From Escherichia coli (GTDB taxonomy: Bacteria > Pseudomonadota > Gammaproteobacteria > Enterobacterales > Enterobacteriaceae), in assembly GCF_016903815.1 (NCBI RefSeq), contig NZ_CP069973.1: 64,000 nucleotides of DNA; one strand, written 5' to 3'. The translations under genes were made by a program, and so were the position numbers. Every line of letters begins with the position of its first letter. Position 1 is the first letter of the stretch. Positions 8,756-39,956 of this stretch are shown here, one piece after another. The notes under the pieces are model-generated. The model was not told the DNA's origin, ran no database searches, and worked only from the letters and a program-made list of their open reading frames with translations.

Positions 8756-9859
8756 ATGAGTGACAGCCAGACGCTGGTGGTAAAACTCGGCACCAGTGTG
8801 CTAACAGGCGGATCGCGCCGCCTGAACCGTGCCCATATTGTTGAACTCGTTCGCCAGTGCGCGCAGTTACATGCCGCCGGGCATCGGATTGTTATTGTGA
8901 CGTCGGGCGCGATTGCCGCCGGACGTGAGCACCTGGGTTACCCAGAACTACCAGCGACTATCGCCTCGAAACAACTGCTGGCGGCGGTAGGGCAGAGTCG
9001 ACTGATTCAACTGTGGGAACAGCTGTTTTCTATTTATGGCATTCACGTCGGGCAAATGCTGCTGACCCGTGCTGATATGGAAGACCGTGAACGCTTCCTG
9101 AACGCCCGCGACACCCTGCGTGCGTTGCTCGATAACAATATCGTTCCGGTAATCAATGAGAACGATGCTGTCGCGACTGCAGAGATTAAGGTCGGCGATA
9201 ACGATAACCTTTCTGCGCTGGCGGCGATTCTGGCGGGTGCCGATAAACTGTTGCTGCTGACCGATCAAAAAGGTTTGTATACCGCTGACCCGCGCAGCAA
9301 TCCGCAGGCAGAACTGATTAAAGATGTTTACGGCATTGATGACGCACTGCGCGCGATTGCTGGCGACAGCGTTTCAGGCCTCGGAACTGGCGGCATGAGT
9401 ACCAAATTGCAGGCCGCGGACGTGGCTTGCCGTGCGGGTATCGACACCATTATTGCCGCGGGCAGCAAGCCGGGCGTTATTGGTGACGTGATGGAAGGCA
9501 TTTCCGTCGGTACGCTGTTCCATGCCCAGGCGACCCCGCTTGAAAACCGTAAACGCTGGATTTTCGGTGCACCACCTGCGGGTGAAATCACGGTAGATGA
9601 AGGGGCAACCGCCGCCATTCTTGAACGCGGCAGCTCCCTGTTGCCGAAAGGTATTAAAAGCGTGACTGGCAACTTCTCGCGTGGTGAAGTGATCCGCATT
9701 TGTAACCTCGAAGGTCGCGATATCGCCCACGGCGTCAGTCGTTACAACAGCGATGCATTACGCCGTATTGCCGGACACCACTCGCAAGAAATAGATGCAA
9801 TACTGGGATATGAATACGGCCCGGTTGCCGTTCACCGTGATGACATGATTACCCGTTAA
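8756..9859 (+). CDS. proB: Glutamate 5-kinase
   Basis: Start set at [14 protein letters not shown] (367 aa); the ORF-track start at 8669 is an over-extension. Confidence 0.9.
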
Positions 9860-11238: not shown

Positions 11239-11314
11239 GCCGATATAGCTCAGTTGGTAGAGCAGCGCATTCGTAATGCGAAGGTCGGAGGTTCGACTCC
11301 TCTTATCGGCACCA
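11239..11314 (+). tRNA. thrW: tRNA-Thr (CGU anticodon)
   Basis: 76-nt sequence GCCGATATAGCTCAGTTGGTAGAGCAGC…GGTTCGACTCCTCTTATCGGCACCA with cloverleaf features and encoded CCA; position after proA matches thrW. Confidence 0.9.
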
Positions 11315-12148: not shown

Positions 12149-12494
12149 AGGGCAACCTCCGATAAGTGGGTGTTCAAGCCACCACCGGAGAGGCTAATCT
12201 CGCGGGTGGTGGAACCGGGCAGGGTTAGCCTTACCAGCCTTATCGGACACTGGCGCGTCTTGCGACGCCCCCGCCCGGCCCACCATTGAGATGTAACCGT
12301 GCGAACAACACAAAAAAAGACGCTGGCGCGTCATGTGTCGCCGATAAGATTTCTTCAGGAGGCTAATCCCGACGCCTGATTTTGCAGGCGCGGGAGAAAG
12401 ATACTGCGATTGGTCATGAGTGGCAAGGGCTACATCATGTTTACCAACATCTCACGCAAAAATACCCTGATTATTAATAGCGAAAATCAGTTTC

Positions 12495-15400
12495 TTATTT
12501 TGGCGGTAGCTTTTTGCGGTTCTTTGCCAACTGGAATCCTTCAGGTAACGGTTTGAATTTATCGCCGCCTTTAGGCCAGCGTTTTGCCCTGCTCTGAAAT
12601 GCCCTTAACGAGTCGATATCCAGCGTTGCAGCGACCACAAAGTCATTATCACCGCCCTTCACACGAGCAATATCACGCATAAAGGGTTCTTTTGCCGGGG
12701 AACGTACGCGACTATCGCCGTATTTTCGGTTATTCACTAAAATAGTATAGGCATGAATATCCAGCGCTGCTGATTCAATCAACGATGCAAACGTATCTAG
12801 ATCTTTATTCCAGCTCAATACCATTAATGCATCGAGTGCGCCCTGAAAACGGATCCTCGCTTTACTATTCTGGAGTTCAGAGCAAATCATAACGCCAAAA
12901 TTGACGCCGTGATGAATATATACCGGCTTACGTTGTTTAACATTAAGTGTCGAATCCCAAGACTTACCATAAATTGAAAATAATGCCTCATCTTCACCTA
13001 CGGCGGGTTCCAGCTTGGGTTGCCATATTTTGACACTCGCTGGATAGCCGAGTCTGTTATCTGAAAGGACAAGTACGGCCTCACTCTTCAGTTGATTATC
13101 GTCTAAGTGGCGGTATTCTGTTCCCGCAATTAGACTGATACCCGCCGAACTCAAACGATCAGCAATACTGTTAACCCAGCGTAACGGGATTGAAAGCTCA
13201 GGGAATAAAACATAATCAGGTTTAGGAGATAGTTTCAATGTTGCATTAACCAGTTCAGAAATCCGCTGGTACCTTGAACGGGACAAGTTAGATTTATTGC
13301 AGGCCATTTTAGCCCAGTCGTCCTCCTCTGTTTTAATGCTGGTTAGCGCAACGACAACTTTATGTTTCCTGTCTGTGCCAATATGAATGAATTTCTTAGG
13401 CCGAGCTTTTTTTGTCGCTTCATCTGAGTCCTGCTCCGATGCTAGCAACGTCGGTTTGATCCATACTCCGCGTAATGCTTGAGTATATTTTGCCCAAATG
13501 GTGGACGGTCTCTCATCTGGTTTTTTGTCGGATGTGGAGGGTAATCCAACACATTCGGGGGCCAGTTCTGATATTTCAGCGGGTGTTAAAGGACGTGTAG
13601 GGAAAATGTAAGGTAGGTAACTTTCGTTCTTACGATTTCCTTTAGCCACTTTTTCCAGTCGGGTATTCTTGGTTGATTTCAAAAATAGCTTAATAACGTC
13701 AATATCAATAAGCGATGAGTCGCTCATTAATTTCAGTATTTTAACTTCTTTTTTACTATCACGCTGATTAACAAGTTTTTCTGCCGACTGACTCTTTACG
13801 ATCTGTTTATAAGGTTCCTTTGCTAAATCAGCTCGAGCTACCAATGGCGCTTTTAAATAAAAATCTGCTGAATCAAAGCGAAGATCCAGTAAATCCTTTA
13901 GATTCGTCAGACTTTGTGAAATATGATTAAAAAATGTATCCGCAAGGCACTCTTCTTTCTTTGAACGTTTATCAAGAAATAATCTGTCAGGACTGTAATA
14001 TCGTGTCGCTGCATCAACAAATAGCCAGCTTAATGTGCCTTTTATACAGCGCCAAAGATCATTTACTGCTCGAGTTTTGCAACCATTTATATTCACTTCC
14101 TTACCTGAAGTAATCACCGATGCCAACAGGTTGATGGATTCGTAAGCTTTAAGTACAATTTTTTCCGCGTGCTGCCATTCATTCATACTGATAGCAAAGC
14201 CAAGCAGCCTTGGCAGATAACTAAAATGTGCAAATAGATTATCAGCCCTAAGAATATGGTTGTAGGCAAACTGATAAAACTCTTCCCGCTGTTCTTTCCA
14301 TTCACTTGGAGGCAGATCTCGTGCCAGTGTTTCAACGTAGCGTAATTGCAGTGACCAGCCCAAACGACGAATGGTTAATCCATCCGCACGGCGCAGAGTA
14401 TCGGCATTTTCACCTACACTACCGGCAGCGGAAAGGACTTTAGCTGCGGTGGAGTGTTCCAGTTGATCCGGTGAAGGCATCAAGCGGTGTTCACTAGAAA
14501 GCTCGTAGATCTCCTTTTCGATACTGTCGAGCAGGTCTATTCCAGCCCTCCCTTGAAGCACGAAAAGTTTTTGCTTATCGGATTGTAACTGGATGGTGGT
14601 CTTACCCTGGAAATGCTCGCCCTGCTGTATTTGCCATATTTGTTTTTGCTCGTTTTTCAAATAAACGCAATCATTGCCAAGCCTATCTTGCAGCAATAAC
14701 ATAAATTCGTGATTATTAGTAATTGTCCCTGTATCGCGTATTACAAGGAACATATCATCGACATAACGACCGTAGTGAATTGGTGATAGTTTTTCAATGA
14801 CTAATTTATCCCAATGGTGTAGCAATATATTTGAAATGATCCGACTGGCTGTTAATCCAATGACCAGACCACCATTAATAACAGGTGTTTTGTACGCTAT
14901 TTTCTTTCCAAATGCCGCTGCGCCGTCAGACCAGTGCTTTAAGAATACTGCTAACTGTGCAGTAAACGCTTTTTCATCCTCAGTCAGTTTTATGTTTAGT
15001 GTGTTATAGAGATCATCAGAGGTTATAGCCAGTGGATCAATAAAATGATAGTAACTTTTTAAATCCAGTGAGGCGGCGATAATGTCACGATCTTTTTCCA
15101 ACTCGTCACGTATAGCTTTTAAGCCATCACCACGCCATTTTTGGTAGGGCTGGAAGTAGGGGCTAAAAGAACCCACGGCACTGATATGGAATGGATTATC
15201 CTGCTCATTGCTAAATAATTCATCATTACGAATACGCTTTAGCCGCGCGCCATAGCAACAGTTATCTAAGCTGGCATCAAATTTATGCCCGACCATGTTA
15301 ATCCATAGTGCAGAGATAATGTGACTATCAACCGGGAAGTCACCAATAATACGAAACTCTGGTATCAGATCAAAATTATTAAATAAATGGTCGGCTGCTC

Positions 15401-15704
15401 GTTTAGGATTAGAAAAGTGGACGTGTCCATTTTGGGATTCATGTTTTTTCTTTGTGGTTAATTTTTTCGGTAACAAACGAAATTTGCCAATCAACTTCTT
15501 ATTGCTACTGAATCCATCTTCGCTCTGCAAAAGATCTAAGAGTTTTTGCAGGTTTTCAAGTAATTCCTGCTCATACTCGGCAAATTTGATAGCAACAGGA
15601 AATGTATTCTCAAAGAAGCTATCGGCTTTTGCTTTCCGGTAAGCGACCAGAAGGTCTTCAATCGTCAGATCATCCCAGCCAGTGAAAATTGCCTGATATG
15701 TCAT
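12495..15704 (-). CDS. Reverse transcriptase fused to a C-terminal nitrilase (carbon-nitrogen hydrolase) domain; candidate defence-associated RT (UG/DRT-like)
   Basis: 1069-aa ORF. RT motifs: ASLDLKSYYHFID (motif A), GLVIGLTASRIISNIL (motif B-like), YGRYVDDMFLV (YVDD at 14754-14765). C-terminal nitrilase-like triad candidates: FPELSIP (Glu codon 13197-13199), a Lys near VKIWQPK, GVMICSE (Cys codon 12881-12883). Confidence 0.8.
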   Translation of the reverse strand: MTYQAIFTGWDDLTIEDLLVAYRKAKADSFFENTFPVAIKFAEYEQELLENLQKLLDLLQSEDGFSSNKKLIGKFRLLPKKLTTKKKHESQNGHVHFSNPKRAADHLFNNFDLIPEFRIIGDFPVDSHIISALWINMVGHKFDASLDNCCYGARLKRIRNDELFSNEQDNPFHISAVGSFSPYFQPYQKWRGDGLKAIRDELEKDRDIIAASLDLKSYYHFIDPLAITSDDLYNTLNIKLTEDEKAFTAQLAVFLKHWSDGAAAFGKKIAYKTPVINGGLVIGLTASRIISNILLHHWDKLVIEKLSPIHYGRYVDDMFLVIRDTGTITNNHEFMLLLQDRLGNDCVYLKNEQKQIWQIQQGEHFQGKTTIQLQSDKQKLFVLQGRAGIDLLDSIEKEIYELSSEHRLMPSPDQLEHSTAAKVLSAAGSVGENADTLRRADGLTIRRLGWSLQLRYVETLARDLPPSEWKEQREEFYQFAYNHILRADNLFAHFSYLPRLLGFAISMNEWQHAEKIVLKAYESINLLASVITSGKEVNINGCKTRAVNDLWRCIKGTLSWLFVDAATRYYSPDRLFLDKRSKKEECLADTFFNHISQSLTNLKDLLDLRFDSADFYLKAPLVARADLAKEPYKQIVKSQSAEKLVNQRDSKKEVKILKLMSDSSLIDIDVIKLFLKSTKNTRLEKVAKGNRKNESYLPYIFPTRPLTPAEISELAPECVGLPSTSDKKPDERPSTIWAKYTQALRGVWIKPTLLASEQDSDEATKKARPKKFIHIGTDRKHKVVVALTSIKTEEDDWAKMACNKSNLSRSRYQRISELVNATLKLSPKPDYVLFPELSIPLRWVNSIADRLSSAGISLIAGTEYRHLDDNQLKSEAVLVLSDNRLGYPASVKIWQPKLEPAVGEDEALFSIYGKSWDSTLNVKQRKPVYIHHGVNFGVMICSELQNSKARIRFQGALDALMVLSWNKDLDTFASLIESAALDIHAYTILVNNRKYGDSRVRSPAKEPFMRDIARVKGGDNDFVVAATLDIDSLRAFQSRAKRWPKGGDKFKPLPEGFQLAKNRKKLPPK

Positions 15705-15998: not shown

Positions 15999-16802
15999 AT
16001 GTCTATTCAGAGGCGACAGTTGCCAAACTATCTAAACTGGCTGATGCAGCACACGCTACCCGGCCAGGTGCTGCTCCAGTCATGGCTTACCCGCAACGGC
16101 ATAGATCGTAAGCTCTCTTATCTCTATGTGAAGAATGGCTGGCTCAGGCGGATCGCTCACGGCGTATACTGCCGGACGGGTCGTGAACCGGATTGGGTGG
16201 ATGCGGTTTACTGCCTGCAATCGCAGTGGGAAAAGCCTGTTCGGGTGGCGGGGCTAACCAGCCTTGCGCTTCAGGGTCATGCGCACTATACCGAACAGGG
16301 TAAGCCGCAGGTCTGGCTCGCGCTTCCGGCTTACGTCAAACTGCCGGGATGGTTTTCTGCCTTTGAACAATCCGCAACATTTGTCACGCTGTATACGTCA
16401 GGCCTTACCGCTGATGTAACGCCATTTACTACGGAACTGAAAATTGGTGACCGGCAGTTAGCGGGCAGTGTCCCGGAACTGGTCGCGTATGAGATCGCTT
16501 GTGGCGTTCCTTCGTTGATCTCGTTCGAACATGCCGATGCTCTGTTTCAGGGGATGAATCTTCTCAGCCCGCGTAAATTGCAGGCGTTACTCTGCGCCAG
16601 TCATTCGGTTAAAACCAACCGGGTGATGCTTTACCTTGCCCGGCGTAATGGACACCCTTATTTTCAGTTTATTGATCAAAGCGGTATAGAAACAGGTACG
16701 GGAAAGCGGCAAATCATACCCGGCGGCTGGCTGGAGCCGGATTATCAAATTACTGTTCCACGCGCATTTAAACCGGAAGGAGTCGAAGATGGATCTGCGT
16801 GA
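15999..16802 (+). CDS. AbiEi-like antitoxin/transcriptional regulator (type IV TA / abortive infection)
   Basis: 267-aa ORF; N-terminal segment (…LYVKNGWLRRIAHGVYCR…) matches the AbiEi wHTH signature; overlaps the next gene by 14 bp. Confidence 0.65.
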   Translation: MSIQRRQLPNYLNWLMQHTLPGQVLLQSWLTRNGIDRKLSYLYVKNGWLRRIAHGVYCRTGREPDWVDAVYCLQSQWEKPVRVAGLTSLALQGHAHYTEQGKPQVWLALPAYVKLPGWFSAFEQSATFVTLYTSGLTADVTPFTTELKIGDRQLAGSVPELVAYEIACGVPSLISFEHADALFQGMNLLSPRKLQALLCASHSVKTNRVMLYLARRNGHPYFQFIDQSGIETGTGKRQIIPGGWLEPDYQITVPRAFKPEGVEDGSA

Positions 16803-17709
16803 TAGCTATGCCCGGCAGGTCAAACTGTTGATGGCCGCTCTGCCGTATGTGGCGAAGGAGTCCTGTTTCGCGTTGAAAGGCGGCACCGCAATCAATTTGT
16901 TTGTGCAGGATTTTCCCCGTCTGTCGGTGGATATTGATCTGGCGTATAAGAGCTTTGCGGATCGCGATACTGATCTGGCGGCTATCAACGACGCTTTGAA
17001 GAGGATTACTGCATCGCTGAACGGCAGACCGGGGATCACCGCGATTCGGCAGGAAAATAAAGCGGATGAAAAGCGCATCATTGTGAATACCGCTGATGCA
17101 AAGATTAAGATCGAGGTTAGCCCGGTCTGGCGCGGGCTGTTGTTGCCTCCGGCAGAAATGCCTGTGTGCGAACGTGTGGAAATGGAGTATGGCTTCACCA
17201 CCATGAGTGTCGTCTCGCTGGCGGATCTTTATGGCGGTAAAATCTGCGCAGCGCTTGATCGTCAGCACCCGCGCGATCTGTTTGATGTGCTGAATATGCT
17301 GGAGAAACCGGGACTGATGCGGGAGATCTTTGACGGTTTTCTTTGTTATCTGGCAGGCCATCCCCGCCCCATTGCCGAGTTGCTGGCCCCAAACTGGGAT
17401 ACAGAGCGGATCACGACGCTGTATGCTCAGGAATTTTCGGGGATGACTCAGCAGGAAACGTCGCTGGAATCGCTGCTGTCAGTAACGACTTTGCTGCCGC
17501 AGGCGTTGAAGTCACATCTTACGGATCTGGATCGCGAGTTCTTGCTCAGTTTTAAGCAAAACAGCCCTGACTGGTCGCGGTATCGCTATCCTGAAATTCA
17601 GCATCTTCCGGCTATTCGCTGGAAGCAACGTAATCTGGCGGTGCTGAAAGATAAAAATCCGGCGAAGTATGTGGCGGCGGTGAATAAGCTAGAGAGGGTG
17701 CTGGCGTAA
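16789..17709 (+). CDS. AbiEii-like nucleotidyltransferase toxin (DUF1814-type)
   Basis: 306-aa ORF with nucleotidyltransferase motif FALKGGTAINLF…RLSVDIDLAY; translationally coupled to the upstream AbiEi-like gene. Confidence 0.7.
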   Translation: MDLRDSYARQVKLLMAALPYVAKESCFALKGGTAINLFVQDFPRLSVDIDLAYKSFADRDTDLAAINDALKRITASLNGRPGITAIRQENKADEKRIIVNTADAKIKIEVSPVWRGLLLPPAEMPVCERVEMEYGFTTMSVVSLADLYGGKICAALDRQHPRDLFDVLNMLEKPGLMREIFDGFLCYLAGHPRPIAELLAPNWDTERITTLYAQEFSGMTQQETSLESLLSVTTLLPQALKSHLTDLDREFLLSFKQNSPDWSRYRYPEIQHLPAIRWKQRNLAVLKDKNPAKYVAAVNKLERVLA

Positions 17710-17821
17710 TCAATAGACCAGCATTAATCACAGATGATTACCAATCAGCCAGAAATGGTTAAATCGTCGAATTCATAATTAATACTTTTTCTTACGCCGC
17801 TGAACAGCTTGAAAAGGATGT

Positions 17822-17933
17822 ATATTTTAAATAGCAGTGAAGTGAACAGTTTATTGCCGTTATTAATAGAGATGGAGGAATAAATACGCGTATTCTACTA
17901 TTGCAACAAAAACAACGATAATGATCAGTTTTC
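17822..17933. repeat. Dispersed ~110-bp repeat, copy A
   Basis: About 88% identical by eye to 37104-37214; shared core …tgaagtgaacagtttattgccgttattaataga…cgtattcta…aaaacaacgata…tcagttt. Confidence 0.75.
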
Positions 17934-18142
17934 ATAATGAAGTAACCTGATAGATATAAAAATGTTGATTGAGGCTAAATGCCCGGATGAAGGTTGTCGA
18001 GGGAGCCAGGTGGTTTTTTCTTTTGGGTGATCTCCATTGCTGGATAGTCCCCTCTTTCTCGCTCAAAGCAGACCCTGGAATTGAACGCAGAGGGACTACC
18101 TGACACAATTTTGCACAGTGAAGAGTCGGTCGTTATTAACGT

Positions 18143-19027
18143 TCAGATTTTCAATGTATCAATGACCATCCGCAGGGCGGGGGAGACGTTGCGATGAGGG
18201 TAATAGAGAAACAATCCCTCCATTCGCAGGCTGTAACGCTGCAACACCCTGATAAGCTTACCGTGTTCTAAATCATCCGCGACCAGTTCAACAGGAACAT
18301 AGGCCAATCCGAGGCCCAGCCGGGCTGCTTCTGCTTCCATATAGCTGTCGGATAAGGCCCATTGCCCTTCAGGGCGATGAGTGATTTTTTTATCATCCTG
18401 ATTGAGTTCCCACTGGTATACGCTGCCGTCGGCAAACTGATAGGCGATACAGGGATGCGCCTTTAAATCCGCCGGGGTTTGCGGAAAACCATAGCGACGA
18501 AAATGTTCCGGAGTCCCCACAATTGCCATCTCCATATCGGGCGTGATGCGTACCGCGACCATACCCTGGCCGACTTCAGGCCCCAGGCGGACACCTGCAT
18601 CGAATCTTTCCTCGATGATATCGACGAACCGGCTCTCATTTATCAGTTCAAGCCGGATATCAGGATATCTCTGTTTAAATACCGCCAGCTTTGGCAGCAG
18701 GCATTTATCAATCGCGTGCTGGCTGGCATTGATACGCACCGTGCCGGAGGGCGTCTCTCGATAGTGCGCCAGCGTGGCAAGCCCAAGATCTAACATTTCA
18801 AATCCAGATGCCGTCTTCTGGTAGAGCTGCTCGCCTGCTTGTGTCAGCGACAGTTTACGCGTGGTGCGCACTAGCAGCTGGACGCCCAGCCTTTCTTCAA
18901 GCTCGCGAACAGAACGGCTGACTCCTGACTGAGCAAGACCCAGCCGCTGAGCCGCTGCGGTAAAGCTGCCTTCCCGCACCACCTGCATAAACAGGTACAG
19001 CTCGTTGTAGTTCTCCCTTTTCGCCAT
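18143..19027 (-). CDS. LysR-family transcriptional regulator
   Basis: 294-aa ORF with LysR N-terminal HTH (FTAAAQRLGLAQSGVSRSV) and substrate-binding domain; divergent from the hydrolase gene. Confidence 0.85.
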   Translation of the reverse strand: MAKRENYNELYLFMQVVREGSFTAAAQRLGLAQSGVSRSVRELEERLGVQLLVRTTRKLSLTQAGEQLYQKTASGFEMLDLGLATLAHYRETPSGTVRINASQHAIDKCLLPKLAVFKQRYPDIRLELINESRFVDIIEERFDAGVRLGPEVGQGMVAVRITPDMEMAIVGTPEHFRRYGFPQTPADLKAHPCIAYQFADGSVYQWELNQDDKKITHRPEGQWALSDSYMEAEAARLGLGLAYVPVELVADDLEHGKLIRVLQRYSLRMEGLFLYYPHRNVSPALRMVIDTLKI

Positions 19028-19213
19028 TGAAACATCCCCCCTTCATGCCGGCAATCTCCGCATTAATTTATAACAATATGGTATTAATCTTAGCATTAAT
19101 CGCCCCCTAATCAGCACTAATTCTGCTCACTATAATGACCCCATCAAAGTAAAGCACCGCAGCGTTGTCCGTCGGAAACCTGTATCTCTCTGTTGTTTTT
19201 TATGGGGACTTTT

Positions 19214-20350
19214 ATGAAAGCCTTCACCCGCACGCTAAAAACCGCGATGCCGACCATGCTGCTTTTCGCATCATTAAGTGGAGTCACGACAATGAGTTAT
19301 GCTGATTCAACCAATCCTAATGCCCCTGTGTCCATGACAGATAAATGGGATAAAACGTTCGCCGAGAGCCAGAAAGTCGATCACCGTAAAGTCTCGTTCC
19401 CGAACCGATATGGCATCACCTTAGTGGGCGATCTTTACCTGCCTAAAGACCGTGGCGATCGCAAGCTGGCGGCGATTGCGGTCAGTGGGCCATTTGGCGC
19501 GGTGAAAGAGCAATCCAGCGGCTTGTATGCGCAGACGCTGGCGGAACGAGGGTTTGTTACCCTGGCGTTCGATCCTTCTTACACCGGGGAAAGCGGCGGC
19601 TATCCGCGAAACGTCGCCTCACCGGATATCAACACTGAAGATTTCAGCGCGGCGGTGGATTTCTTAGGGCTGCAAAAAGAGGTAGATCGCAACCGTATCG
19701 GGCTGCTCGGTATTTGTGGCTGGGGCGGCATGGCGCTGAACGACGTGGCGATGGATACCCGCGTTAAAGCGGTAGCTACCAGCGTGATGTATGACATGAG
19801 CCGGGCGATGGGTCATGGTGTGGGGGATGGCAAAGACCGTTATTCTACCGCCGACCGTCGTGCCGTTCTGCAATATCTGAATGAACAGCGCTGGAAGGAT
19901 GCGCAGAGCGGAACGTTCGCTCACGGTGGTCATGATATTAATGTCGATAGCAACGGCAAGGTCAGTGCGGGCGAGCGCATTCTGCCAGAAACGCTGCCGG
20001 CAAATCCTCATCCGGTACTGAAAGAGTTCTTTGACTACTATCGCATGCCGCGCGGCTTCCACGAACGTTCCGTTAACTCTACCGGGGCGTGGACGGCAAC
20101 GATGCCGCTGTCATTTATGAATATGCCGCTGTTGAGCTACGCCAGTGAAATCACCATTCCGACGCTGATTGTGACCGGTGAGAAAGCACATTCACGCTAT
20201 TTTGCTGAAGATGCTTACAAGGCGGTTGGCAGTAAAGACAAAGAGTTGGTGGTGGTACCAGGGGCAAATCACGTGGACCTGTACGATAACGTGGCCGGAA
20301 AAATACCTTTCGCGAAGTTCGAACAATTTTTCCAGACCAAACTGAAATAA
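19214..20350 (+). CDS. Secreted alpha/beta hydrolase (dienelactone-hydrolase-like, Cys nucleophile elbow)
   Basis: Start set at MKAFTRTLK… (signal-peptide-like N-terminus); GICGWGG elbow; paralogous to the ORF at 39036-39956. Confidence 0.75.
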   Translation: MKAFTRTLKTAMPTMLLFASLSGVTTMSYADSTNPNAPVSMTDKWDKTFAESQKVDHRKVSFPNRYGITLVGDLYLPKDRGDRKLAAIAVSGPFGAVKEQSSGLYAQTLAERGFVTLAFDPSYTGESGGYPRNVASPDINTEDFSAAVDFLGLQKEVDRNRIGLLGICGWGGMALNDVAMDTRVKAVATSVMYDMSRAMGHGVGDGKDRYSTADRRAVLQYLNEQRWKDAQSGTFAHGGHDINVDSNGKVSAGERILPETLPANPHPVLKEFFDYYRMPRGFHERSVNSTGAWTATMPLSFMNMPLLSYASEITIPTLIVTGEKAHSRYFAEDAYKAVGSKDKELVVVPGANHVDLYDNVAGKIPFAKFEQFFQTKLK

Positions 20351-20425
20351 AACCTCTCCTGAATTGATGCAAAGCCATCGGCCATAGGCTGGTGGCTTTT
20401 ATCCTGATCTTTGTGAAATTTCACT

Positions 20426-21619
20426 ATGTCGACACTAAGCCAAACACTATCACCTCATCATCAGCGCGCATACTGGGGCGGTATTTTTGCCATGACCCTG
20501 TGCGTGTTTGTGCTGATTGCTTCTGAATTTATGCCCGTCAGCCTGCTCACGCCGATTACCCGCGATTTAGGCGTGACGGAGGGGCTGGCAGGGCAGGGGA
20601 TTGCTATCTCCGGCGCGCTGGCGGTTCTGACCAGCCTGACGCTTTCAACGCTAGCTGGAAAGATGAATCGTAAGTTCCTGCTGCTGGGGATGACGGTTCT
20701 GATGGCCGTATCGGGGCTTATTATTGCGCTGGCTTCCAGTTATCTGATGTATATGGTCGGTCGTGCGATGATTGGTGTGGCCATTGGCGGATTCTGGTCG
20801 ATGTCAGCGGCAACGGCTATTCGTCTGGTACCGCAGCATCAGGTTACGCGTGCGCTGGCGATTTTCAACGCCGGTAATGCGCTGGCGACGGCCGTGGCCG
20901 CACCGCTGGGAAGCTATCTGGGGGCTACGGTCGGATGGCGAGGCGCTTTCTTGTGCCTGGTGCCTATCGCGGTTGTCGCCTTTATCTGGCAATGCATTAG
21001 TCTGCCAAGCATGGATGCGAATAAAAGCCACACGTCATGTGGCGCGGTATTCCGCTTATTTAGCCGCCGCATGGTTGTGGTCGGCATGATAGCCTGCGGC
21101 CTGTTTTTCATGGGGCAGTTTGCACTATTCACCTATGTGCGCCCGTTTCTGGAGTCGGTGACACGGGTTAATTCCTTAGGCTTGTCGTCGATTTTGCTGA
21201 TTATCGGCGTGGCCGGTTTTATTGGCACGCTGGTTGTTTCGGCATTTCTCAACAGAAAATTCTACCCCACGCTGATGGCCATACCCGGACTGATGGCCGT
21301 CATTGCCATCGGTCTGATGCTTACCGGGCATCACGTCTGGACGGTCTCGCTGCTGTTAGGACTCTGGGGCATGCTGGCCACCGCCGCGCCAACCGGATGG
21401 TGGACATGGATTGCGCGTACGTTGCCTGACAACGCCGAAGCTGGAGGCGGGCTCATGGTCGCGGTGATTCAGCTCGCCATCGCCCTTGGATCAACGGCAG
21501 GAGGCATTGTGTTTGACCGCCTTGGCTGGCAGAGCACGTTTGCTATGAGTAGCGTGCTGCTCCTTTGCGCTGGCGTACTGACCTTTGTTACCGCACGCCA
21601 GAAGGCCGGTGCGCTTTAG
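20426..21619 (+). CDS. MFS transporter
   Basis: 397-aa highly hydrophobic ORF with a multi-TM pattern. Confidence 0.8.
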   Translation: MSTLSQTLSPHHQRAYWGGIFAMTLCVFVLIASEFMPVSLLTPITRDLGVTEGLAGQGIAISGALAVLTSLTLSTLAGKMNRKFLLLGMTVLMAVSGLIIALASSYLMYMVGRAMIGVAIGGFWSMSAATAIRLVPQHQVTRALAIFNAGNALATAVAAPLGSYLGATVGWRGAFLCLVPIAVVAFIWQCISLPSMDANKSHTSCGAVFRLFSRRMVVVGMIACGLFFMGQFALFTYVRPFLESVTRVNSLGLSSILLIIGVAGFIGTLVVSAFLNRKFYPTLMAIPGLMAVIAIGLMLTGHHVWTVSLLLGLWGMLATAAPTGWWTWIARTLPDNAEAGGGLMVAVIQLAIALGSTAGGIVFDRLGWQSTFAMSSVLLLCAGVLTFVTARQKAGAL

Positions 21620-27619: not shown

Positions 27620-27632
27620 TGCATTGAATAAT

Positions 27633-27662
27633 AAAAATGGCGCAAATGCAGCGCCATTTTTA
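27633..27662. terminator. Hairpin terminator between yagU and ykgJ
   Basis: aaaaatggcgc…gcgccattttt stem flanked by A- and T-runs, between convergent genes. Confidence 0.55.
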
Positions 27663-27867
27663 TAGGTTAAAAACATTGCTTTTTACTTTCTGAAGCAGAT
27701 AGCCAGTGAGTACATCGCGCTACTTCAGGATGCTGTAGATCCGGAGAACACTATAGAGGAAGATGCATTGTTGCTGGCAGATGGAAGAAGTTTCGGGTTT
27801 TGTTATCCCTGAAAAACGAAGCCCCGCGGTTATAGCTGGCGGGGCAGTGCAATTAATTATTGCATAT

Positions 27868-28510: not shown

Positions 28511-29221
28511 TTAGTCCGCCGAAGGGGGCTTAGCAGGACAGGAATCGCTAATCTTAATGAATTTGTCGTTATAGACCAGATAATGATTCCCCGGCTGACG
28601 TAACTCAGGCTGATGAACCACGTCTCCCGGACGTAGATACCAGGCATCGCCTTCCTCTTCGGTCGAATCACATCCTGGCTTAATCAGTAGCTTAAACCAT
28701 GTGTTGCCAGTGTTACTTACCGTTCCTGTCACCTGGTCGAAGGACCATTTAAACTGAACCTGACGTGGTCGTACTACCAGAATGGTATCTATCACCACCA
28801 CCGGCTCCGTGCTGACCTCGCCGCCGGTTGGGCTACGTCTTGTCTGGTTACGAGTGGGGACCTCGCGAAATGAGACCCGGTAGTAGCGCTCGCGGTTATC
28901 CCGTGGACCATGATAGTAAAATTTAAAATACTCGCTCTCACCAGCCTGCAACGCCAGCTGGCGGGGGGCGAAAAGCAGTTCACCATCCACCGGTCGGGTG
29001 CGCAATTCACTGCTGCCCGGGCTATCAATAGCACTGATGGCAATACGGTATATCCGTGCGCTTTTGTTGTTATTCACTACACGTTTGCTGACAAAGTCAG
29101 TCTCGGACGGCAGTGAAAAAGTCAGATTGCCGACCGAAATCGCCTGTGTCAAAGGTGCCGCCAGCATACAGACCACTGTCAGCAGGGCCTTAGTTAATGT
29201 TACGCCACGTCGCCTGAACAT
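28511..29221 (-). CDS. ecpE: E. coli common pilus chaperone-like protein EcpE
   Basis: Start set at [11 protein letters not shown]… (236 aa); overlaps the ecpD 3' end. Confidence 0.8.
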
Positions 29222-33373: not shown

Positions 33374-34042
33374 CTATTTCACGGGAATGAACTTATCACC
33401 CTGCCAAAGTGCAACCCGTCCTTTGTTATCCGCCGTGTCCACGCGGGTAAAACGACGCGACTTGCCCGGCATCAGGTAGTAATTCTCTTTACACTCCTTA
33501 CCATTGGCGGCTTTCAGGCAGGGGCCGTAGGCGAGGATCCGCAGCGTCGCATTTCCTGTATTTGTCAGGGAGCCGTTGGCGTACTGAAAGCGGTAGTTCG
33601 CCTGGCGGGGGGCGACGACCAGAATGGTGCCGATGCGGGCGGAAGCAGTGGCTACAGCGCTGCGGTTGGCATTATCGCGCTGCGCATCACTGAGGGCCTG
33701 ATCGAACCAGACAATGCGGTAGTAGCGCTCTTTTTCATCTGCTGGTCCCTTATAGAAGAAGCGGATCACTTCGCTGGCTTGGGCGGGTAGCAGCAAGCTA
33801 GCGGGAGTGAGTAGCAACTCATCCGGCTTGTCCATTGCGATAACCTGCCCGTCGTCAAGCGGTGAAGAGAGCCGTTCGAGACGGATATTGATGAGGCGGC
33901 CACTGTCGGTACTGTTTTGGATCGTTTTGCTCAGCGTGCTGCTGTCACTGTTCATAAACGATGATATATCGCCGACATCCAGCGCCTGGGCCGGAGATAT
34001 TCCGGAAAACAGCAGAGCGAGAGGCAGAAGGTGCTTTTTCAT
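33374..34042 (-). CDS. ecpB: E. coli common pilus chaperone EcpB
   Basis: 222-aa ORF with signal peptide. Confidence 0.85.
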
Positions 34043-35981: not shown

Positions 35982-36387
35982 TCAGTCATCTGTGCGCGTT
36001 ACTCTAACTGGCACTCGAACGTCGGCGATGGGGTTACCGGTGGATCAGGCCGTTCCTGTGGCGTAAACGTTTTTATGTCAGTACCAACAGATTTACCACA
36101 TTTATCATCTTAACCGTTTGAGTGTAAATGCAGGCTGCGTCGCAAAGGGAGGAAACTGAGTGGCGTGTTCAGTCTAAAAGAGAGTTGATGCCAGCATACA
36201 GGGCGCACCTGGTCAACAAGTCAACATTAATATAATGGAATATTCGGAGAGAAACGTCAGGCAGTTGACCTTAAATGAACAGGAAGATACATCCCCAGGA
36301 AAATTAATGCTGGTGTAATAAATACACCAACATTAATCCGGTCTGATTATTAATCAGACAAATATCGTTAATTCGTCGAATTTTGAA

Positions 36388-36528
36388 TCAACGTTTTTTC
36401 TTACGACCCTGAACGGCCTTAAAACGTGGATTAGATTTACAAATCACATATAGCCGTCCTTTTCGCTTCACAATCTGACAGTCTGGATGGCGTTCTTTTG
36501 CGGTACGCAGAGAGTTAAGGACTTTCAT
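36388..36528 (-). CDS. ykgO: 50S ribosomal protein L36 paralogue (zinc-independent, type B)
   Basis: 46-aa [46 protein letters not shown]; start overlaps the ykgM stop (ATGA arrangement). Confidence 0.85.
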
Positions 36529-36791
36529 CATGCCCCCTTTTTCGTGCTAACAAAACGACCAAAACGTTGGGTGAATCGTGCAACATTTCCTTCTGATGCC
36601 ACTGTTCTCAGCTTCCCTGTATAGAACGGGTGCGATTTAGAAGAGACATCAATTGTCACGTACGGATACGTTACGCCATCCAGCTCAATCTCACGGTCTG
36701 TTTTGATAGTCGAGCCGATTTTAAAGTACTCATCAACACTGGTGTCGTGGAACACCACAGTACGATACTCAGGATGGATATTGGGCTTCAT
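36528..36791 (-). CDS. ykgM: 50S ribosomal protein L31 paralogue (zinc-independent, type B)
   Basis: 87-aa [18 protein letters not shown]…; Zur-box palindrome in its promoter. Confidence 0.85.
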
Positions 36792-36802
36792 CATTTTTAC
36801 CT

Positions 36803-36820
36803 GTTATGTTATAACATAAC
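36803..36820. promoter_or_regulatory. Zur box upstream of ykgM-ykgO
   Basis: Perfect 18-bp palindrome GTTATGTTATAACATAAC, 12 bp upstream of the ykgM start; matches the TGTTATA…TATAACA Zur core. Confidence 0.7.
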
Positions 36821-37103
36821 CATAAAGATACATGCTCATCCGGATCATTTCAACACCCAATCCCTGTGACCATTTGTGGTATGTGGAATTTCGGCAACGG
36901 GGAAGTCTGGCATTGTTAGCAGCCATTGGCGACGCTCCCATAAACGCCTTGATGAGTGATGGTTTCGCTGAGAGTATGAATTTTTCGAGAATGGAGGCTA
37001 TCTCCATTTTACTGGCCGATGATTTATCGCAGTTTGATTGCCGGACAGCGTGTATTCCTCTCCCACGGATATAATAATTACTTACAAAAAAGGGAGAGGA
37101 TGC

Positions 37104-37214
37104 ATATTTTTTAATATCACTGAAGTGAACAGTTTATTGCCGTTATTAATAGAAATGGAGAAATAAATAGGCGTATTCTACAATTGCGACAAAAACAACG
37201 ATATTAATCAGTTT
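37104..37214. repeat. Dispersed ~110-bp repeat, copy B
   Basis: About 88% identical by eye to 17822-17933. Confidence 0.75.
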
Positions 37215-37719
37215 ATGACTGATTTGTTGTACTTTATTCTCTTTCATTGGTACTTCCTCGCTTTAAAAAAGAGTGCACTTCGTAAGTGCCCTTATATAAA
37301 TAACGAGTTTGGTCAACCAATTTTTTGACATGTATCACAAATTTGAATAGATGTATTACATCGGCTATCTTTTATTGCCCCAACGTCATTGATATATGTC
37401 GCCTGAAGTCAGTCCGGGAATGAGTCTGATCTCAAAACTGGCCCAGCCCGGGCGTTGATTGGCGCTGAGGAGCATATCGCATCTCATCATAATGTCGTAT
37501 CTCCTGGGGTGTTATACAAGATATCGTTGTTGGTGACCTGGGAGAGGAATTGAGTTCTATTAAACCGTCAACTATGCCGGATACATACTGGATTACACAG
37601 CAGGCACGCCTTACGAGAGAACGTGCCGCAGTGACGAGTTAATTATCTGAAAGAATTTGCGAGGCTGTATCGGTTACTCATTGGTTTAATAGTTTTACTC
37701 TCGGGAGAGTAATAGATAT

Positions 37720-38862
37720 TTAATCCATTAACGGAAACCAGCCAGTTCCTTTCGATGCCTGAATTTGATCCCATAGTTTATCCGGAATGGTTAATTCAGG
37801 AACAAGTTGTGGATTAAGGGTTGTTTGAATTTCATGGCTTCTACCTGATTCAGCTAAAGTCACCCATTCTGGATTTATCACCAGCCCTTTACCGATCGCA
37901 ACAAGTGGCAGGCCAGCGGAAATTGCTTCTTGAGCCTGAGACGGTGTGCGTATTTTACCTGCAGCGATTACCGGCACTCTGCCTGCAATATGATTTAAAA
38001 TCAATTCAATAGTTCGGGGGCCATTTGGCGACTCAACAGGGTAGCTATCGTTAATACTGACCAGCGAGGTATGTATATACGAAATACCGGATGAAATGAG
38101 TCGATCAAGGAGTTTATAAGTATCCTCTATCCGCAGCCCCCCTGTTACAGATTCTTCAGGAGATATTCTGTAACCGATAGCAAAGCGCTTTGTCGCATAT
38201 TCATAGACTACATTTTTTACTTCCTGTAATACGGCCAGCGGGAAGCGCATACGTCCTTCAAGATCTCCTCCCCATCGGTCATTACGCTGGTTAAATAGAG
38301 GGGAGAAGAAATTCTGCAGAAGGAATCCGTGCGCACCATGAAGTTCAACGCCATCAAAACCTGCTTTAATCGCCCTTTTTGTGACATCTCCGAATGCTCT
38401 AATGGTTTCCTGAATTTCGTTTTCAGTCATTTCCCTGCTTTGTACCACTCTCTTCATAAAGTCACCAGATTTTACGCTTGATGCGCTGGCACTAATAACA
38501 TCGTTATTTGGCACAAGCTCCGGGATGGCTTTATTACCAGCGTGGAAAATCTGCAAAATAGCCGGAGCACCGCCACTTTTGGCTGCAGCTGCTAACTTTT
38601 CAAGGCTGTTAATGAAACGGTCGTCATACGCGGCAAATTCATGAGTAAACCCAATGCCGCTTGGCGTGACATAGGTGCATCCTGTTATTACTAAACCAAC
38701 ATTTTGTGAGCGACGTTTATAAAATTCGAGTTCTTGCTCAGAGATGGTTCCATCAGGATTAGCTGACCAGGTTGTCATAGGAGCCATAACGATACGATTA
38801 CGTAGCTTTATTTTTTCTGTCAGCATAAAAGGAGAAAACAATGATGGGTGTTTATTTGTCAT
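37720..38862 (-). CDS. Old-Yellow-Enzyme family NADH:flavin oxidoreductase
   Basis: 380-aa ORF; N-terminus …LFSPFMLTEKIKLRNRIVMAPMTT… is a typical OYE TIM-barrel start. Confidence 0.8.
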   Translation of the reverse strand: MTNKHPSLFSPFMLTEKIKLRNRIVMAPMTTWSANPDGTISEQELEFYKRRSQNVGLVITGCTYVTPSGIGFTHEFAAYDDRFINSLEKLAAAAKSGGAPAILQIFHAGNKAIPELVPNNDVISASASSVKSGDFMKRVVQSREMTENEIQETIRAFGDVTKRAIKAGFDGVELHGAHGFLLQNFFSPLFNQRNDRWGGDLEGRMRFPLAVLQEVKNVVYEYATKRFAIGYRISPEESVTGGLRIEDTYKLLDRLISSGISYIHTSLVSINDSYPVESPNGPRTIELILNHIAGRVPVIAAGKIRTPSQAQEAISAGLPLVAIGKGLVINPEWVTLAESGRSHEIQTTLNPQLVPELTIPDKLWDQIQASKGTGWFPLMD

Positions 38863-39035
38863 AACAATACCTCAAATGTTTATCTGATTTTAATGCGTAT
38901 AATCTTAATAAGTTGAGTTGCTACTTTTTGATGCTTTTTTTCCTTTAATAGAATTCTTTTTGAGTAATTTTATTATTGTTGTGTAGTCAATAAAGGATAA
39001 ATGTCAGGGAGATAAGGAATCTCCCTGTAAGATTA

Positions 39036-39956
39036 TTACAAATGTGTTTTATAAAAAGGAATTAATTTTTCGAGTGCCTGTTTCACAGGTTCTGGCTTAT
39101 CATACAGGTCGTAATGTGAATAACCTTCAACCACGACCAGCTCTTTATGTTTTGAGGCAGCGCGGCCAATAATTTCGCAGCCGTCACGGTAGGCACCAAA
39201 TGCGCCCACTCTATCGCCCACCACAACCATTATTGGTTGAGTTAACAGGACTTCTGCAAGATGAAATGCATCCCAACCCACGGCAACAGTCTGATGTGAG
39301 AATAGCGAACGATTTACCCCATTAGGTGCACAGCCTCGTGGCGAACGATAATATTCTGTGGCTTCAAAAAGGTCTATTTCTGTTAATCCCGCTTCAAGAG
39401 CTGCATCCGGAGAAGAGGGGAGTAAATCATCTACGCGAAGTTTTGCGCCGTTAGCTTCGTCTGTTCTTTGTTGCGCCATCGCTTCGAGTGCTCCGATAGG
39501 ATTAAACGCTGTAAATCCCTCACGCATAAGACGCCCGTAGTTTGCACCCGTGACAGTACCAATAGCTTTAATTCGACGTTCTGTCATTGCGGCATTAATG
39601 GCATATCCACCTCCACCACAAATACCCAGTACACCAATACGCCCGGCATCAACGTAAGGTAAGGTGGTAAGGTAATCAACGACAATGCTGAAGTCTTTTA
39701 CTCGCATTGTTGGATCTTCCAGATAACGCGGTTCTCCACCGCTGCTTCCCTGAAAACTGGCATCAAAAGCAATGACGATAAAGCCAGCTTTTGCCAGGGC
39801 GGCACCATACACACTACCCGATGTCTGTTCTTTGCAGCTTCCAATTGGATGGGCGCTGATAATGGCAGGATACTTTTTTTCACTATTAAAATCGTCAGGG
39901 AAATAGATATCAGCAGCTATATCCCAGTAAGTATGTTTTATCGAAACAGTTTTCAT
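39036..39956 (-). CDS. Alpha/beta hydrolase (dienelactone-hydrolase-like, Cys nucleophile elbow)
   Basis: 306-aa ORF; GICGGGG elbow; paralogue of the ORF at 19214-20350. Confidence 0.75.
   Translation of the reverse strand: MKTVSIKHTYWDIAADIYFPDDFNSEKKYPAIISAHPIGSCKEQTSGSVYGAALAKAGFIVIAFDASFQGSSGGEPRYLEDPTMRVKDFSIVVDYLTTLPYVDAGRIGVLGICGGGGYAINAAMTERRIKAIGTVTGANYGRLMREGFTAFNPIGALEAMAQQRTDEANGAKLRVDDLLPSSPDAALEAGLTEIDLFEATEYYRSPRGCAPNGVNRSLFSHQTVAVGWDAFHLAEVLLTQPIMVVVGDRVGAFGAYRDGCEIIGRAASKHKELVVVEGYSHYDLYDKPEPVKQALEKLIPFYKTHL

What the first reader, a model, noticed from the sequence alone, without database searches (positions are those of the whole stretch)
17822..17933. About 110-bp dispersed repeat present at 17822-17933 and 37104-37214, each at the left edge of a LysR/hydrolase module
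The two copies are about 88% identical by eye. Both lie in intergenic DNA just to the left of a cluster containing a paralogous LysR regulator and Cys-elbow alpha/beta hydrolase (18143-21619 and 37720-42132). The sequence is not a REP/ERIC-type palindrome that I recognise. It may be a conserved promoter or small RNA duplicated with the module, or a recombination scar. Copy A is followed by an independent hairpin (tagtcccctct…agagggacta, about 18046-18099).
Basis: seen in the sequence. Interest (0 to 1): 0.5.

Follow-up and report, generated by a model that had tools for sequence, protein, structure and literature searches.

The report
ykgR gene and its truncated relic
The 110-bp repeat is the last two-thirds of the small membrane-protein gene ykgR: one copy is the working gene and the other a dead, truncated leftover, so the feature is ordinary and does not belong to the LysR/hydrolase clusters.

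Summary
The repeat is real: 17815-17931 matches 37097-37214 at 90% over 118 nt (E 6e-40). The window is E. coli chromosome, thrW to ykgR.

- **Copy B** is codons 12-33 plus the stop of ykgR (33-aa small membrane protein, 37146-37247, minus strand), together with 49 nt of 3' flank.
- **Copy A** is a 5'-truncated ykgR pseudogene, already annotated as such in RefSeq. It has no start codon, an in-frame TGA just upstream, and mostly amino-acid-changing substitutions.
- **New here:** copy A abuts a relic of the ykgO 3' end and terminator (17699-17827, 76% to 36308-36438). The region is therefore a decayed ykgO-ykgM-ykgR locus that lost about 660 bp.

The link to the LysR/hydrolase modules is not supported. 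The proteins are only 29-42% identical and the modules are inverted relative to each other. In other genera the LysR-hydrolase-MFS cassette has different neighbours and no ykgR nearby. There is no Rfam hit, no RNA structure signal, no promoter-like site, and never more than two copies of the repeat unit in any genome examined.

Three of 5,426 complete E. coli genomes carry one full ykgR with copy-B upstream DNA and copy-A downstream DNA. They lack the 19.3 kb in between (pao, ecp, ykgMO). The repeats therefore bracket an insertion/deletion polymorphism whose direction is unresolved. Low interest.

The parts
37146..37247 (-). ykgR, the intact gene for the 33-aa small membrane protein YkgR (MKENKVQQISHKLINIVVFVAIVEYAYLFLHFY)
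   Evidence: Translation. RefSeq annotation WP_000662258.1 in the 100%-identical strain 7/2. NCBIfam NF041474 equivalog, 78.1 bits against a cut-off of 40, model positions 1-33 of 33.
37097..37214 (-). Repeat copy B: ykgR codons 12-33 plus stop (37146-37214) and 49 nt of 3' flank (37097-37145)
   Evidence: BLASTN against copy A, 89.8% over 118 nt, E 6e-40.
17815..17931 (-). Repeat copy A: 5'-truncated ykgR pseudogene (codons 12-33 plus stop at 17863-17931) and 48 nt of 3' flank
   Evidence: PGAP annotates it as 'small membrane protein YkgR, incomplete, missing N-terminus'. There is an in-frame TGA two codons upstream and no start codon. NF041474 scores 36.1 bits, below the cut-off of 40, covering model positions 12-33 only. 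Copy A versions in five strains show 2-4 nonsynonymous against 1-2 synonymous codon changes.
17699..17827 (-). Relic of the ykgO (L36 type B) 3' end: last 12-16 codons, stop at 17779-17781, and a decayed ykgO terminator hairpin. It is fused directly to copy A and overlaps it by 13 nt (17815-17827)
   Evidence: 76% identity to 36308-36438, E 9e-19. In strains with an undisturbed left flank the match is 76-79% over about 155 nt, E down to 8e-31. The conceptual C-terminus FQAVQRRKKKY* compares with Ykg[12 protein letters not shown] (read from the alignment; a short, individually non-significant tblastn match, E 0.64). The hairpin folds at -10.5 kcal/mol here against -21.1 kcal/mol (z -8.5) in the real gene.
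36308..36438 (-). Counterpart of the relic in the functional locus: ykgO last 16 codons plus stop (36388-36438) and the ykgO terminator region
   Evidence: ykgO and ykgM are annotated in strain 7/2.
36439..37096 (-). Segment of the functional locus with no counterpart at copy A (about 660 bp): the 5' two-thirds of ykgO, all of ykgM, and the ykgM upstream region
   Evidence: This is the gap between the two homology blocks. Both deletion end points carry the imperfect repeat AAAT(C/A)T(A/G)(A/C)ATCC.
17932..18142 (.). Single-copy spacer between copy A and the LysR stop codon. It contains the hairpin at 18046-18099 and belongs to neither the repeat nor the LysR-hydrolase-MFS cassette
   Evidence: No counterpart at copy B. 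Cassette homology in other genera starts at 18139-18152. It occurs once per genome in 912 E. coli genomes. Hairpin fold.
17699..17710 (.). Junction between the thrW island (AbiEii end) and the relic: 12 nt (TGCTGGCGTAAT) shared by both sides. The junction removes about 35 nt of the relic in this strain
   Evidence: Breakpoints at query positions 1500 and 1511. The relic extends about 35 nt further left in O157, C122 and GN02270.

Best explanation
**Identity (shown).** The repeat unit is the 3' two-thirds of the small-membrane-protein gene ykgR plus about 45 nt downstream, read on the minus strand. Copy B (37097-37214) is part of the working gene, which sits upstream of the zinc-regulated ribosomal-protein paralogues ykgM-ykgO. 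Copy A (17815-17931) is a dead fragment. It lacks promoter, ribosome-binding site and the first 11 codons. It is fused on its 3' side to a fragment of the ykgO 3' end and terminator. Copy A plus its left neighbour is therefore the relic of a ykgO-ykgM-ykgR locus that lost about 660 bp between two short imperfect repeats.

**Function (inferred).** The relic probably does nothing as a sequence. It is backbone DNA next to the thrW integration hot spot, and most E. coli have lost it by larger deletions.

**Origin (inferred).** The two copies flank a 19.3-kb block: spacer, LysR-hydrolase-MFS, paoABCD, yagU, ykgJ, the ecp pilus operon, ykgL, ykgO and ykgM. Rare genomes have a single full ykgR with copy-A downstream DNA and lack the block. 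Copy A shares derived bases with that single-copy allele along its whole length. The favoured history (about even odds) is that the block was joined into a short allele. One end joined illegitimately at ykgR codon 11/12 and the other by homology, leaving the resident 3' part of ykgR stranded as copy A. The reverse history, an old duplication followed by deletion, is not excluded.
For: - **Identity.** The window is 100% identical to E. coli 7/2, where the two places are annotated as ykgR and as a partial ykgR pseudogene. Translation and the YkgR family model agree. YkgR is an experimentally detected membrane protein (PMC7549839).
- **ykgO relic.**
- **Decay of copy A.** It has an in-frame stop and no start codon and no promoter-like site. 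Nonsynonymous changes exceed synonymous ones in copy A, whereas functional copies across Escherichia show 3-6 synonymous against 0-1 nonsynonymous.
- **Backbone, not island cargo.** O145:H28 has an empty thrW site yet carries thrW-LysR-SDR-hyp-relic-LysR-hydrolase-MFS-paoD. The breakpoint at 17699 is shared by hundreds of genomes. K-12 lost the relic in a 6.1-kb deletion.
- **Single-copy alleles.** 6EVA, wlxctx60 and GF4-3 are the only 3 of 5,426 genomes spanning the junction query. They have no match to ykgMO, ecpA, paoC or hydrolase probes.
- **Relationship of copy A to the single-copy allele.** They share the derived states GATT>GATC and ATT>ATA. The single-copy allele keeps 9 nt at the junction that all copy A versions lack, and it lacks the copy-A-specific changes.
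Against: - No expression data were available, so transcription of copy A (for instance as the 3' end of the LysR mRNA) cannot be excluded.
- The polarity of the insertion/deletion is not established. No genome was found with an intact ykgO-ykgM next to hyp-SDR, and none with the block but without copy A.
- E. albertii and more than 90% of E. coli have the full arrangement next to ykgR. That fits loss in the rare alleles as well as gain.
- The two homology blocks differ in divergence (76% vs 90%). This needs either different constraint histories or gene conversion.
- Copy A of E. coli is closer to copy B of E. coli (90-92%) than to the copy-A-type sequence of the divergent strain E69 (82-85%). 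That hints at some sequence exchange between the copies.
Confidence: 0.85

Rival explanations
1. Old duplication followed by decay. A segment running from the spacer at 17932 to within ykgR was duplicated, for example in tandem. Most of the first copy was then deleted, leaving the ykgO and ykgR fragments. The rare single-copy genomes are later deletion products of recombination between copy A and copy B.
For: Direct repeats 19.3 kb apart are a classic deletion substrate. The region is deletion-prone: K-12 has a 6.1-kb deletion, and Escherichia sp. E1V33 has lost everything between thrW and ykgR through a different junction. The full arrangement next to ykgR is the majority state and is also seen in E. 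albertii.
Against: The single-copy alleles are copy-A-like at the 5'-most informative sites of the repeat. A crossover would therefore have to fall within the first 8-11 nt of homology. They also retain 9 nt and several ancestral bases that every sampled copy A has lost, so they are not recent recombinants. Two diverged haplotypes, 92% identical, share the same junction.
Confidence: 0.4
2. One reading: the unit is a functional promoter or small RNA that was duplicated together with a paralogous LysR/hydrolase module.
For: Both copies lie to the left of LysR and alpha/beta-hydrolase genes. Copy A is strictly linked to the adjacent LysR gene within E. coli (910 vs 912 genomes).
Against: The unit is ykgR coding sequence. 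There is no Rfam hit. Fold energies are within shuffles on both strands (z between -1.1 and +1.1). Copy A has no promoter-like site. The module proteins are only 29-42% identical and the modules are inverted relative to each other. No DNA homology exists outside the repeat and the ykgO block. The cassette in other genera lacks the unit.
Confidence: 0.03
3. Copy A still encodes something: either a truncated YkgR transmembrane peptide or the 47-aa ORF in another frame (17792-17935, minus strand, ATG at 17935).
For: The ATG at 17933-17935 is present in all copy A sequences examined. The YkgR-frame remnant is still open for 22 codons and scores 36.1 bits against the YkgR model.
Against: The YkgR frame has no start codon and a TGA directly upstream. 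By my reading of the O157/O145 sequences, the other-frame ORF stops after about 33 codons there against 47 here. That ORF has no family match. Substitutions in the YkgR frame are mostly nonsynonymous and include L>P and F>S in the membrane helix. No promoter-like site was found.
Confidence: 0.03
4. The unit is a dispersed or mobile repeat (REP/ERIC-like, a transposon end or a phage attachment site).
For: It lies next to the thrW integration hot spot, and the island junction in this strain falls at the edge of the relic.
Against: The window and every genome examined in detail hold at most two copies of the unit; queries that included flanking DNA gave up to 4 places per genome. A degenerate motif scan of about 100,000 species genomes found it only in Escherichia, plus two tiny contigs that are 97-98% E. 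coli sequence. There is no phage match. The plasmid hits look like large K-12-derived (F-prime-like) plasmids or 4-5 Mb chromosomes filed as plasmids, judged from record length and organism. There is no tRNA-end repeat nearby and no palindromic structure.
Confidence: 0.01

Closest known systems
ykgR (b4671), small membrane protein YkgR of E. coli K-12; NCBIfam NF041474
   Same: Copy B is this gene. The protein is identical to WP_000662258.1, in the same position upstream of ykgM-ykgO as in K-12.
   Different: Copy A covers only model positions 12-33, scores below the family cut-off, and has no start codon.
RefSeq/PGAP pseudogene annotation 'small membrane protein YkgR; incomplete; missing N-terminus' (e.g. 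CRT46_RS27220 in strain 7/2)
   Same: It has the same coordinates as the coding part of copy A, 17863-17931.
   Different: The annotation does not record the 48 nt of shared 3' flank, the adjoining ykgO fragment, or the relation to the 19.3-kb block.
ykgM-ykgO, the paralogues of ribosomal proteins L31 and L36 (zinc/Zur regulation is from general knowledge, not tested here)
   Same: The relic to the left of copy A derives from the ykgO 3' end and terminator of such a locus.
   Different: ykgM, the ykgM upstream region and two-thirds of ykgO are gone. In other genera ykgM-ykgO sits between an EAL-domain gene and ylaC, with no ykgR nearby.
Gene remnants left by homology-facilitated illegitimate recombination, or by decay of a tandem duplication, in bacterial chromosomes
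   Same: There are direct repeats of part of a gene at the two ends of a block that is present or absent between strains. One junction is homologous and one is illegitimate.
   Different: The direction and the mechanism were not demonstrated here; they are inferred from the pattern of shared substitutions only.

Membership tests
YkgR small membrane protein (NCBIfam NF041474) | Full-length match to the 33-residue model above the curated cut-off of 40 bits | tested here: met
   Copy B ORF 37146-37247 scores 78.1 bits over model positions 1-33 of 33. This row applies to copy B only.
YkgR small membrane protein (NCBIfam NF041474) | The same criterion applied to copy A | tested here: not met
   Copy A scores 36.1 bits, below 40, over model positions 12-33 only. 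It has no start codon and an in-frame TGA upstream.
YkgR small membrane protein (NCBIfam NF041474) | Purifying selection on the membrane helix | tested here: not met
   For copy A, 2-4 nonsynonymous against 1-2 synonymous codon changes in five strains. Functional copies show 0-1 nonsynonymous against 3-6 synonymous. The sample is small.
Ribosomal protein L36 type B gene (ykgO) | Complete reading frame of about 46 codons | tested here: not met
   At 17779-17827 only the last 12-16 codons plus the stop remain. The intact gene is at 36388-36531.
Structured small RNA or cis-regulatory RNA (any Rfam family) | Covariance-model match, or fold stability beyond shuffled controls | tested here: not met
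   No match at gathering thresholds and only noise at E up to 10. Fold z-scores lie between -1.1 and +1.1 on both strands of both copies.
REP/BIME/ERIC-type dispersed intergenic repeats | Many copies per genome, imperfect palindrome, intergenic location | tested here: not met
   The window holds two copies. Queries that included flanking DNA gave a median of 1 and at most 4 places per genome. The unit is not palindromic and is coding in copy B.
Segmental duplication of a LysR/hydrolase module that includes the repeat | Colinear homology extending from the repeat into the module, same relative orientation, comparable divergence | tested here: not met
   There is no DNA homology between the modules. 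Protein identity is 29-42% against 90% DNA identity for the repeat, and the modules are inverted. The cassette in other genera lacks the repeat.
Recombination substrate flanking a presence/absence block | Natural alleles with one hybrid copy and without the intervening DNA | tested here: met
   6EVA, wlxctx60 and GF4-3 have one full ykgR, copy-B-type upstream DNA and copy-A-type downstream DNA, and none of the four block probes.
Recombination substrate flanking a presence/absence block | Demonstrated direction and frequency of the exchange | not testable with these tools
   This needs a rooted genome phylogeny and a PCR or selection assay. The substitution pattern is only suggestive.

The most novel reading that the evidence does not exclude
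The two ykgR copies may be the footprint of the event that placed a 19.3-kb block into an older, shorter thrW-ykgR region of Escherichia. The block carries the Pao aldehyde oxidoreductase, the E. coli common pilus operon, the ykgM-ykgO ribosomal-protein paralogues and a LysR-hydrolase-MFS cassette. On this reading, surviving 'short' alleles (6EVA, wlxctx60, GF4-3, probably E69) are natural E. coli that never had, or cleanly lost, ecp and ykgMO.
Probability: 0.45. Interest if true: 0.35.

Novelty: already known. Interest (0 to 1): 0.18.

Why it matters
It matters little for biology at large. The repeat is a known gene and its annotated pseudogene fragment, not a new regulatory element.

Three points are modestly useful.
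- The unannotated ykgO fragment shows that the 'intergenic' DNA left of the LysR gene is a decayed ykgO-ykgM-ykgR locus.
- The repeats mark the ends of a block carrying ecp, pao and ykgMO. That block is missing from a few natural E. coli, which could serve as natural knock-outs.
- Short gene fragments like this can mislead repeat or sRNA screens and read mapping for ykgR.

Tried and rejected
- I used a degenerate DNA motif scan of species genomes instead. It found only Escherichia, and it returned the E69 locus cut at codon 18, so the 5' end of that copy could not be read. Exact look-ups of the E. albertii YkgM sequence found nothing on record. E69-like genomes are not in the complete E. coli set; the best match was 84%.
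- **Origin from another genus with the LysR module.** I tested whether copy A came with the LysR-hydrolase-MFS cassette from a genus where the cassette neighbours ykgR/ykgMO. This is rejected. In Kluyvera, Citrobacter and Klebsiella the cassette has unrelated neighbours, and its homology stops at the LysR stop codon. A sample of the 90% LysR cluster showed no other Escherichia species.
- **Second intact ykgM near copy A.** Divergent 'E. coli' L31B proteins turned out to be on an integrative conjugative element, or in another genus at the ylaB-ylaC site.
- **Island cargo or attachment site.** Rejected. There is no tRNA-end repeat and the relic is present at an empty thrW site.
- **Mobile element.** Rejected.
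- **Structured RNA.** Rejected.

Full report
**Observation.** BLASTN aligns 17815-17931 with 37097-37214 at 89.8% identity over 118 columns with one 1-nt indel (E 6e-40). The ungapped core, 17825-17931 vs 37108-37214, is 91% identical. No other long repeat occurs in the window apart from one weak 44-nt pair.

**What the window is.** The region is 100% identical to the chromosome of E. coli strain 7/2. The gene order is as follows.
- proBA, then thrW (tRNA-Thr, 11239-11311).
- A small thrW island: integrase remnants, a 1069-aa reverse transcriptase, and AbiEi/AbiEii.
- Copy A.
- LysR, alpha/beta hydrolase and MFS transporter.
- paoDCBA, yagU, ykgJ and ecpEDCBA-R.
- ykgL, ykgO, ykgM, then ykgR (copy B).
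- A flavin oxidoreductase, a hydrolase and two LysR genes.

**Identity of the repeat.**
- Copy B overlaps ykgR (37146-37247, minus strand). This gene encodes the 33-aa small membrane protein MKENKVQQISHKLINIVVFVAIVEYAYLFLHFY.
- It matches the NCBIfam equivalog NF041474 end to end, at 78.1 bits against a cut-off of 40.
- YkgR has been detected experimentally. It cross-links to the signal recognition particle (PMC7549839; reviewed in PMC12648545).
- The repeat covers codons 12-33 plus the stop and 49 nt downstream of the gene.
- Copy A is what RefSeq already annotates as 'small membrane protein YkgR, incomplete, missing N-terminus' (17863-17931).
- In the ykgR frame copy A reads SL*KLIIIVVFVAIVEYAYLFLHLY*. 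There is no start codon, and a TGA lies two codons before the homology begins.
- Against the YkgR model copy A scores 36.1 bits, below the cut-off, over positions 12-33 only.

Directly left of copy A, 17699-17827 is 76% identical to 36308-36438 (E 9e-19). That target is the last 16 codons and stop of ykgO (ribosomal protein L36 type B) plus its terminator region.
- The stop codons line up (17779-17781). The remnant reads ...FQAVQRRKKKY* against YkgO ...[11 protein letters not shown].
- In strains whose left flank is undisturbed the block is about 35 nt longer and the match reaches E 8e-31.
- The strong ykgO terminator hairpin (-21.1 kcal/mol, z -8.5) has a weakened counterpart at 17699-17735 (-10.5 kcal/mol).
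- The two blocks overlap by 13 nt on copy A (17815-17827, AGGATGTATATTT). This stretch resembles both deletion end points in the functional locus.
- Copy A plus its neighbour is therefore a ykgO-ykgM-ykgR locus that lost about 660 bp (equivalent to 36439-37096), probably between short imperfect repeats. The lost part is most of ykgO, all of ykgM and the ykgM upstream region. The locus was also truncated at ykgR codon 11/12.

**Is copy A doing anything?** Nothing suggests so.
- Rfam gives no match at gathering thresholds and only noise at E up to 10.
- Both strands of both copies fold no better than shuffled sequence (z between -1.1 and +1.1).
- No promoter-like site lies in 17500-18300.
- Functional ykgR copies from E. 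coli, Escherichia sp. E1V33 and E. albertii differ by 3-6 synonymous and 0-1 conservative nonsynonymous codons. Copy A in five strains shows 1-2 synonymous and 2-4 nonsynonymous changes, including L>P, I>T and F>S in the membrane helix.
- The 47-aa ORF in another frame (17792-17935) has no family match. By my reading of the O157/O145 sequences it stops after about 33 codons there.

**Relation to the LysR/hydrolase 'modules'.**
- The paralogy is real but remote. The LysR next to copy A is 42% and 29% identical to the two LysR proteins near copy B, and the hydrolases are 32% identical.
- The layouts are mirror images. Next to copy A it is LysR(-)/hydrolase(+)/MFS(+). Near copy B, after an intervening oxidoreductase, it is hydrolase(-)/LysR(+)/LysR(+). 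The repeats themselves are direct.
- Apart from the two blocks above, no DNA similarity links the regions.
- Orthologues of the copy-A LysR (84-90% identical) in Kluyvera, Citrobacter and Klebsiella sit in three unrelated chromosomal contexts. DNA homology to the window spans only 18139-21564, and no ykgR, ykgM or ykgO lies nearby.
- The repeat was therefore not duplicated with the module. Within E. coli, however, copy A, the 211-bp spacer and the LysR gene always travel together: 910 genomes carry copy A plus spacer and 912 carry spacer plus LysR, out of 5,426.

**Backbone, not island cargo.**
- In O145:H28 the thrW site is empty and the order is thrW-LysR-SDR-hyp-[relic]-LysR-hydrolase-MFS-paoD. 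O157, C122 and GN02270 show the same right-hand part.
- In the window's strain the AbiE island abuts the relic at 17699-17710, with 12 shared bases.
- K-12 lacks copy A. A 6.1-kb deletion fused the C-terminal part of the thrW-proximal LysR (yagP) to the DNA just upstream of paoD.
- The unit is not mobile. There is no phage match. The plasmid hits look like large K-12-derived (F-prime-like) plasmids or 4-5 Mb chromosomes filed as plasmids, judged from record length and organism. A degenerate motif scan of about 100,000 species genomes found it only in Escherichia, plus two tiny contigs that are 97-98% E. coli sequence.

**Single-copy alleles.** Three complete genomes contain one full-length ykgR: 6EVA, wlxctx60 and the divergent GF4-3. 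Its upstream side is copy-B type and its downstream side is copy-A type, running ykgO relic-hyp-SDR-LysR-thrW.
- A chimeric probe showed that these three genomes have no match anywhere to ykgMO, ecpA, paoC or the hydrolase. Typical genomes gave six places.
- At proBA they fall within ordinary E. coli diversity.
- The divergent strain E69 has the same copy-A-type downstream junction behind an apparently intact ykgR 3' end. Its 5' end could not be read.
- Escherichia sp. E1V33 has lost everything between thrW and ykgR through a different junction.

**Which came first?** The evidence comes from the alignment.
- The single-copy alleles and all copy A versions share two derived, synonymous states (GATT>GATC and ATT>ATA). 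All copy B versions and the outgroups lack them.
- Every copy A has further changes (GCC>GCG, CAGTG>CACTG, a 9-nt loss at the junction) that the single-copy alleles lack.
- Copy A therefore descends from a gene like that of the short allele. The short alleles are not recent crossovers between modern copies, because such a crossover would have to fall within the first 8-11 nt of the homology.
- I slightly favour insertion of the 19.3-kb block into a short allele. On this model one end joined illegitimately at ykgR codon 11/12 and the other by homology.
- An old duplication with partial decay, followed by an early deletion, remains a serious rival.
- The block is the majority state, and ykgR-ykgM-ykgO adjacency is also found in E. 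albertii.
- E. coli copy A is closer to E. coli copy B than to the E69 sequence, which hints at some exchange between the copies.

**The hairpin at 18046-18099.** It is real but lies in the single-copy spacer 44 nt downstream of the LysR stop codon. It is not followed by a T-run and has no counterpart at copy B. Its role was not established.

**Verdict.** The feature is an annotated gene and its pseudogene fragment, with an unannotated ykgO fragment beside it. Interest is low. The only mildly new element is the insertion/deletion polymorphism of the pao-ecp-ykgMO block, which is bounded by the two ykgR copies.

Noticed in passing
window 12495-15704 (-), 15999-16802 (+), 16789-17709 (+): The small thrW island carries two anti-phage systems. 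One is a 1069-aa reverse transcriptase matching the DRT class UG5-nitrilase model end to end (1034 bits). The other is an AbiEi/AbiEii toxin-antitoxin pair.
   Followed up: partly
window 12202-12391 (-): Rfam hits to C4 antisense RNA and isrK lie next to the integrase remnants. This suggests a P4-like satellite remnant at thrW.
   Followed up: no
window 27625-27825 (+): There is a full-length Rfam IS009 match of 190.7 bits. By coordinate conversion from the strain 7/2 annotation it falls in the yagU-ykgJ interval.
   Followed up: no
L019 10001-10279 (E. coli GCA_028559195.1 contig ABKOBF010000028.1): A lone ykgM-like L31 type B gene lies on an integrative conjugative element among TraC/TraU/TraG and integrase genes. 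It is 92% identical at protein level, has a 5-residue YPYVT duplication, and is 79% identical in DNA including the upstream region. It has no ykgO or ykgR beside it.
   Followed up: partly
L022 10001-10476 (Logan SRR11408829 contig 33): In another enterobacterial genus, ykgM-ykgO (80% and 87% protein identity) lies between an EAL-domain gene and ylaC, near hha-tomB-acrAB, with no ykgR. The Escherichia position of ykgMO next to ykgR and ecp is therefore lineage-specific.
   Followed up: partly
L002 17204-17720 (K-12 yagP) vs L003 5454-5934: K-12 yagP is the C-terminal part of the thrW-proximal LysR gene. A 6.1-kb deletion fused it to DNA just upstream of paoD. The deletion removed SDR, hyp, the ykgO/ykgR relic and the LysR-hydrolase-MFS cassette.
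   Followed up: yes
L009 9826-10363 (Escherichia sp. E1V33): ykgR is full length with the copy-B-type 3' flank for about 100 nt. It is followed directly by sequence like the thrW-island end and the last 16 nt of thrW. ykgMO and everything up to thrW are missing from this position.
   Followed up: partly
L013 about 9440-9470 (GF4-3): The 9-mer TTCAAGCTG at the ykgO relic junction is present in three tandem copies in GF4-3, against one in the other strains.
   Followed up: no
window 37275-37345 (-): A terminator-like hairpin (GCACTTACGAAGTGC followed by a T-run) lies about 30 nt upstream of the ykgR start. Further upstream, my reading of the sequence shows TGTGATACATGTCAAA, which resembles a CRP-type site. 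All of this is absent from copy A.
   Followed up: no
window 28878-28921 and 33717-33760: A weak 44-nt direct repeat (70% identity) lies inside the ecp operon. It probably reflects the paralogous ecpB/ecpE chaperone genes, or chance.
   Followed up: no
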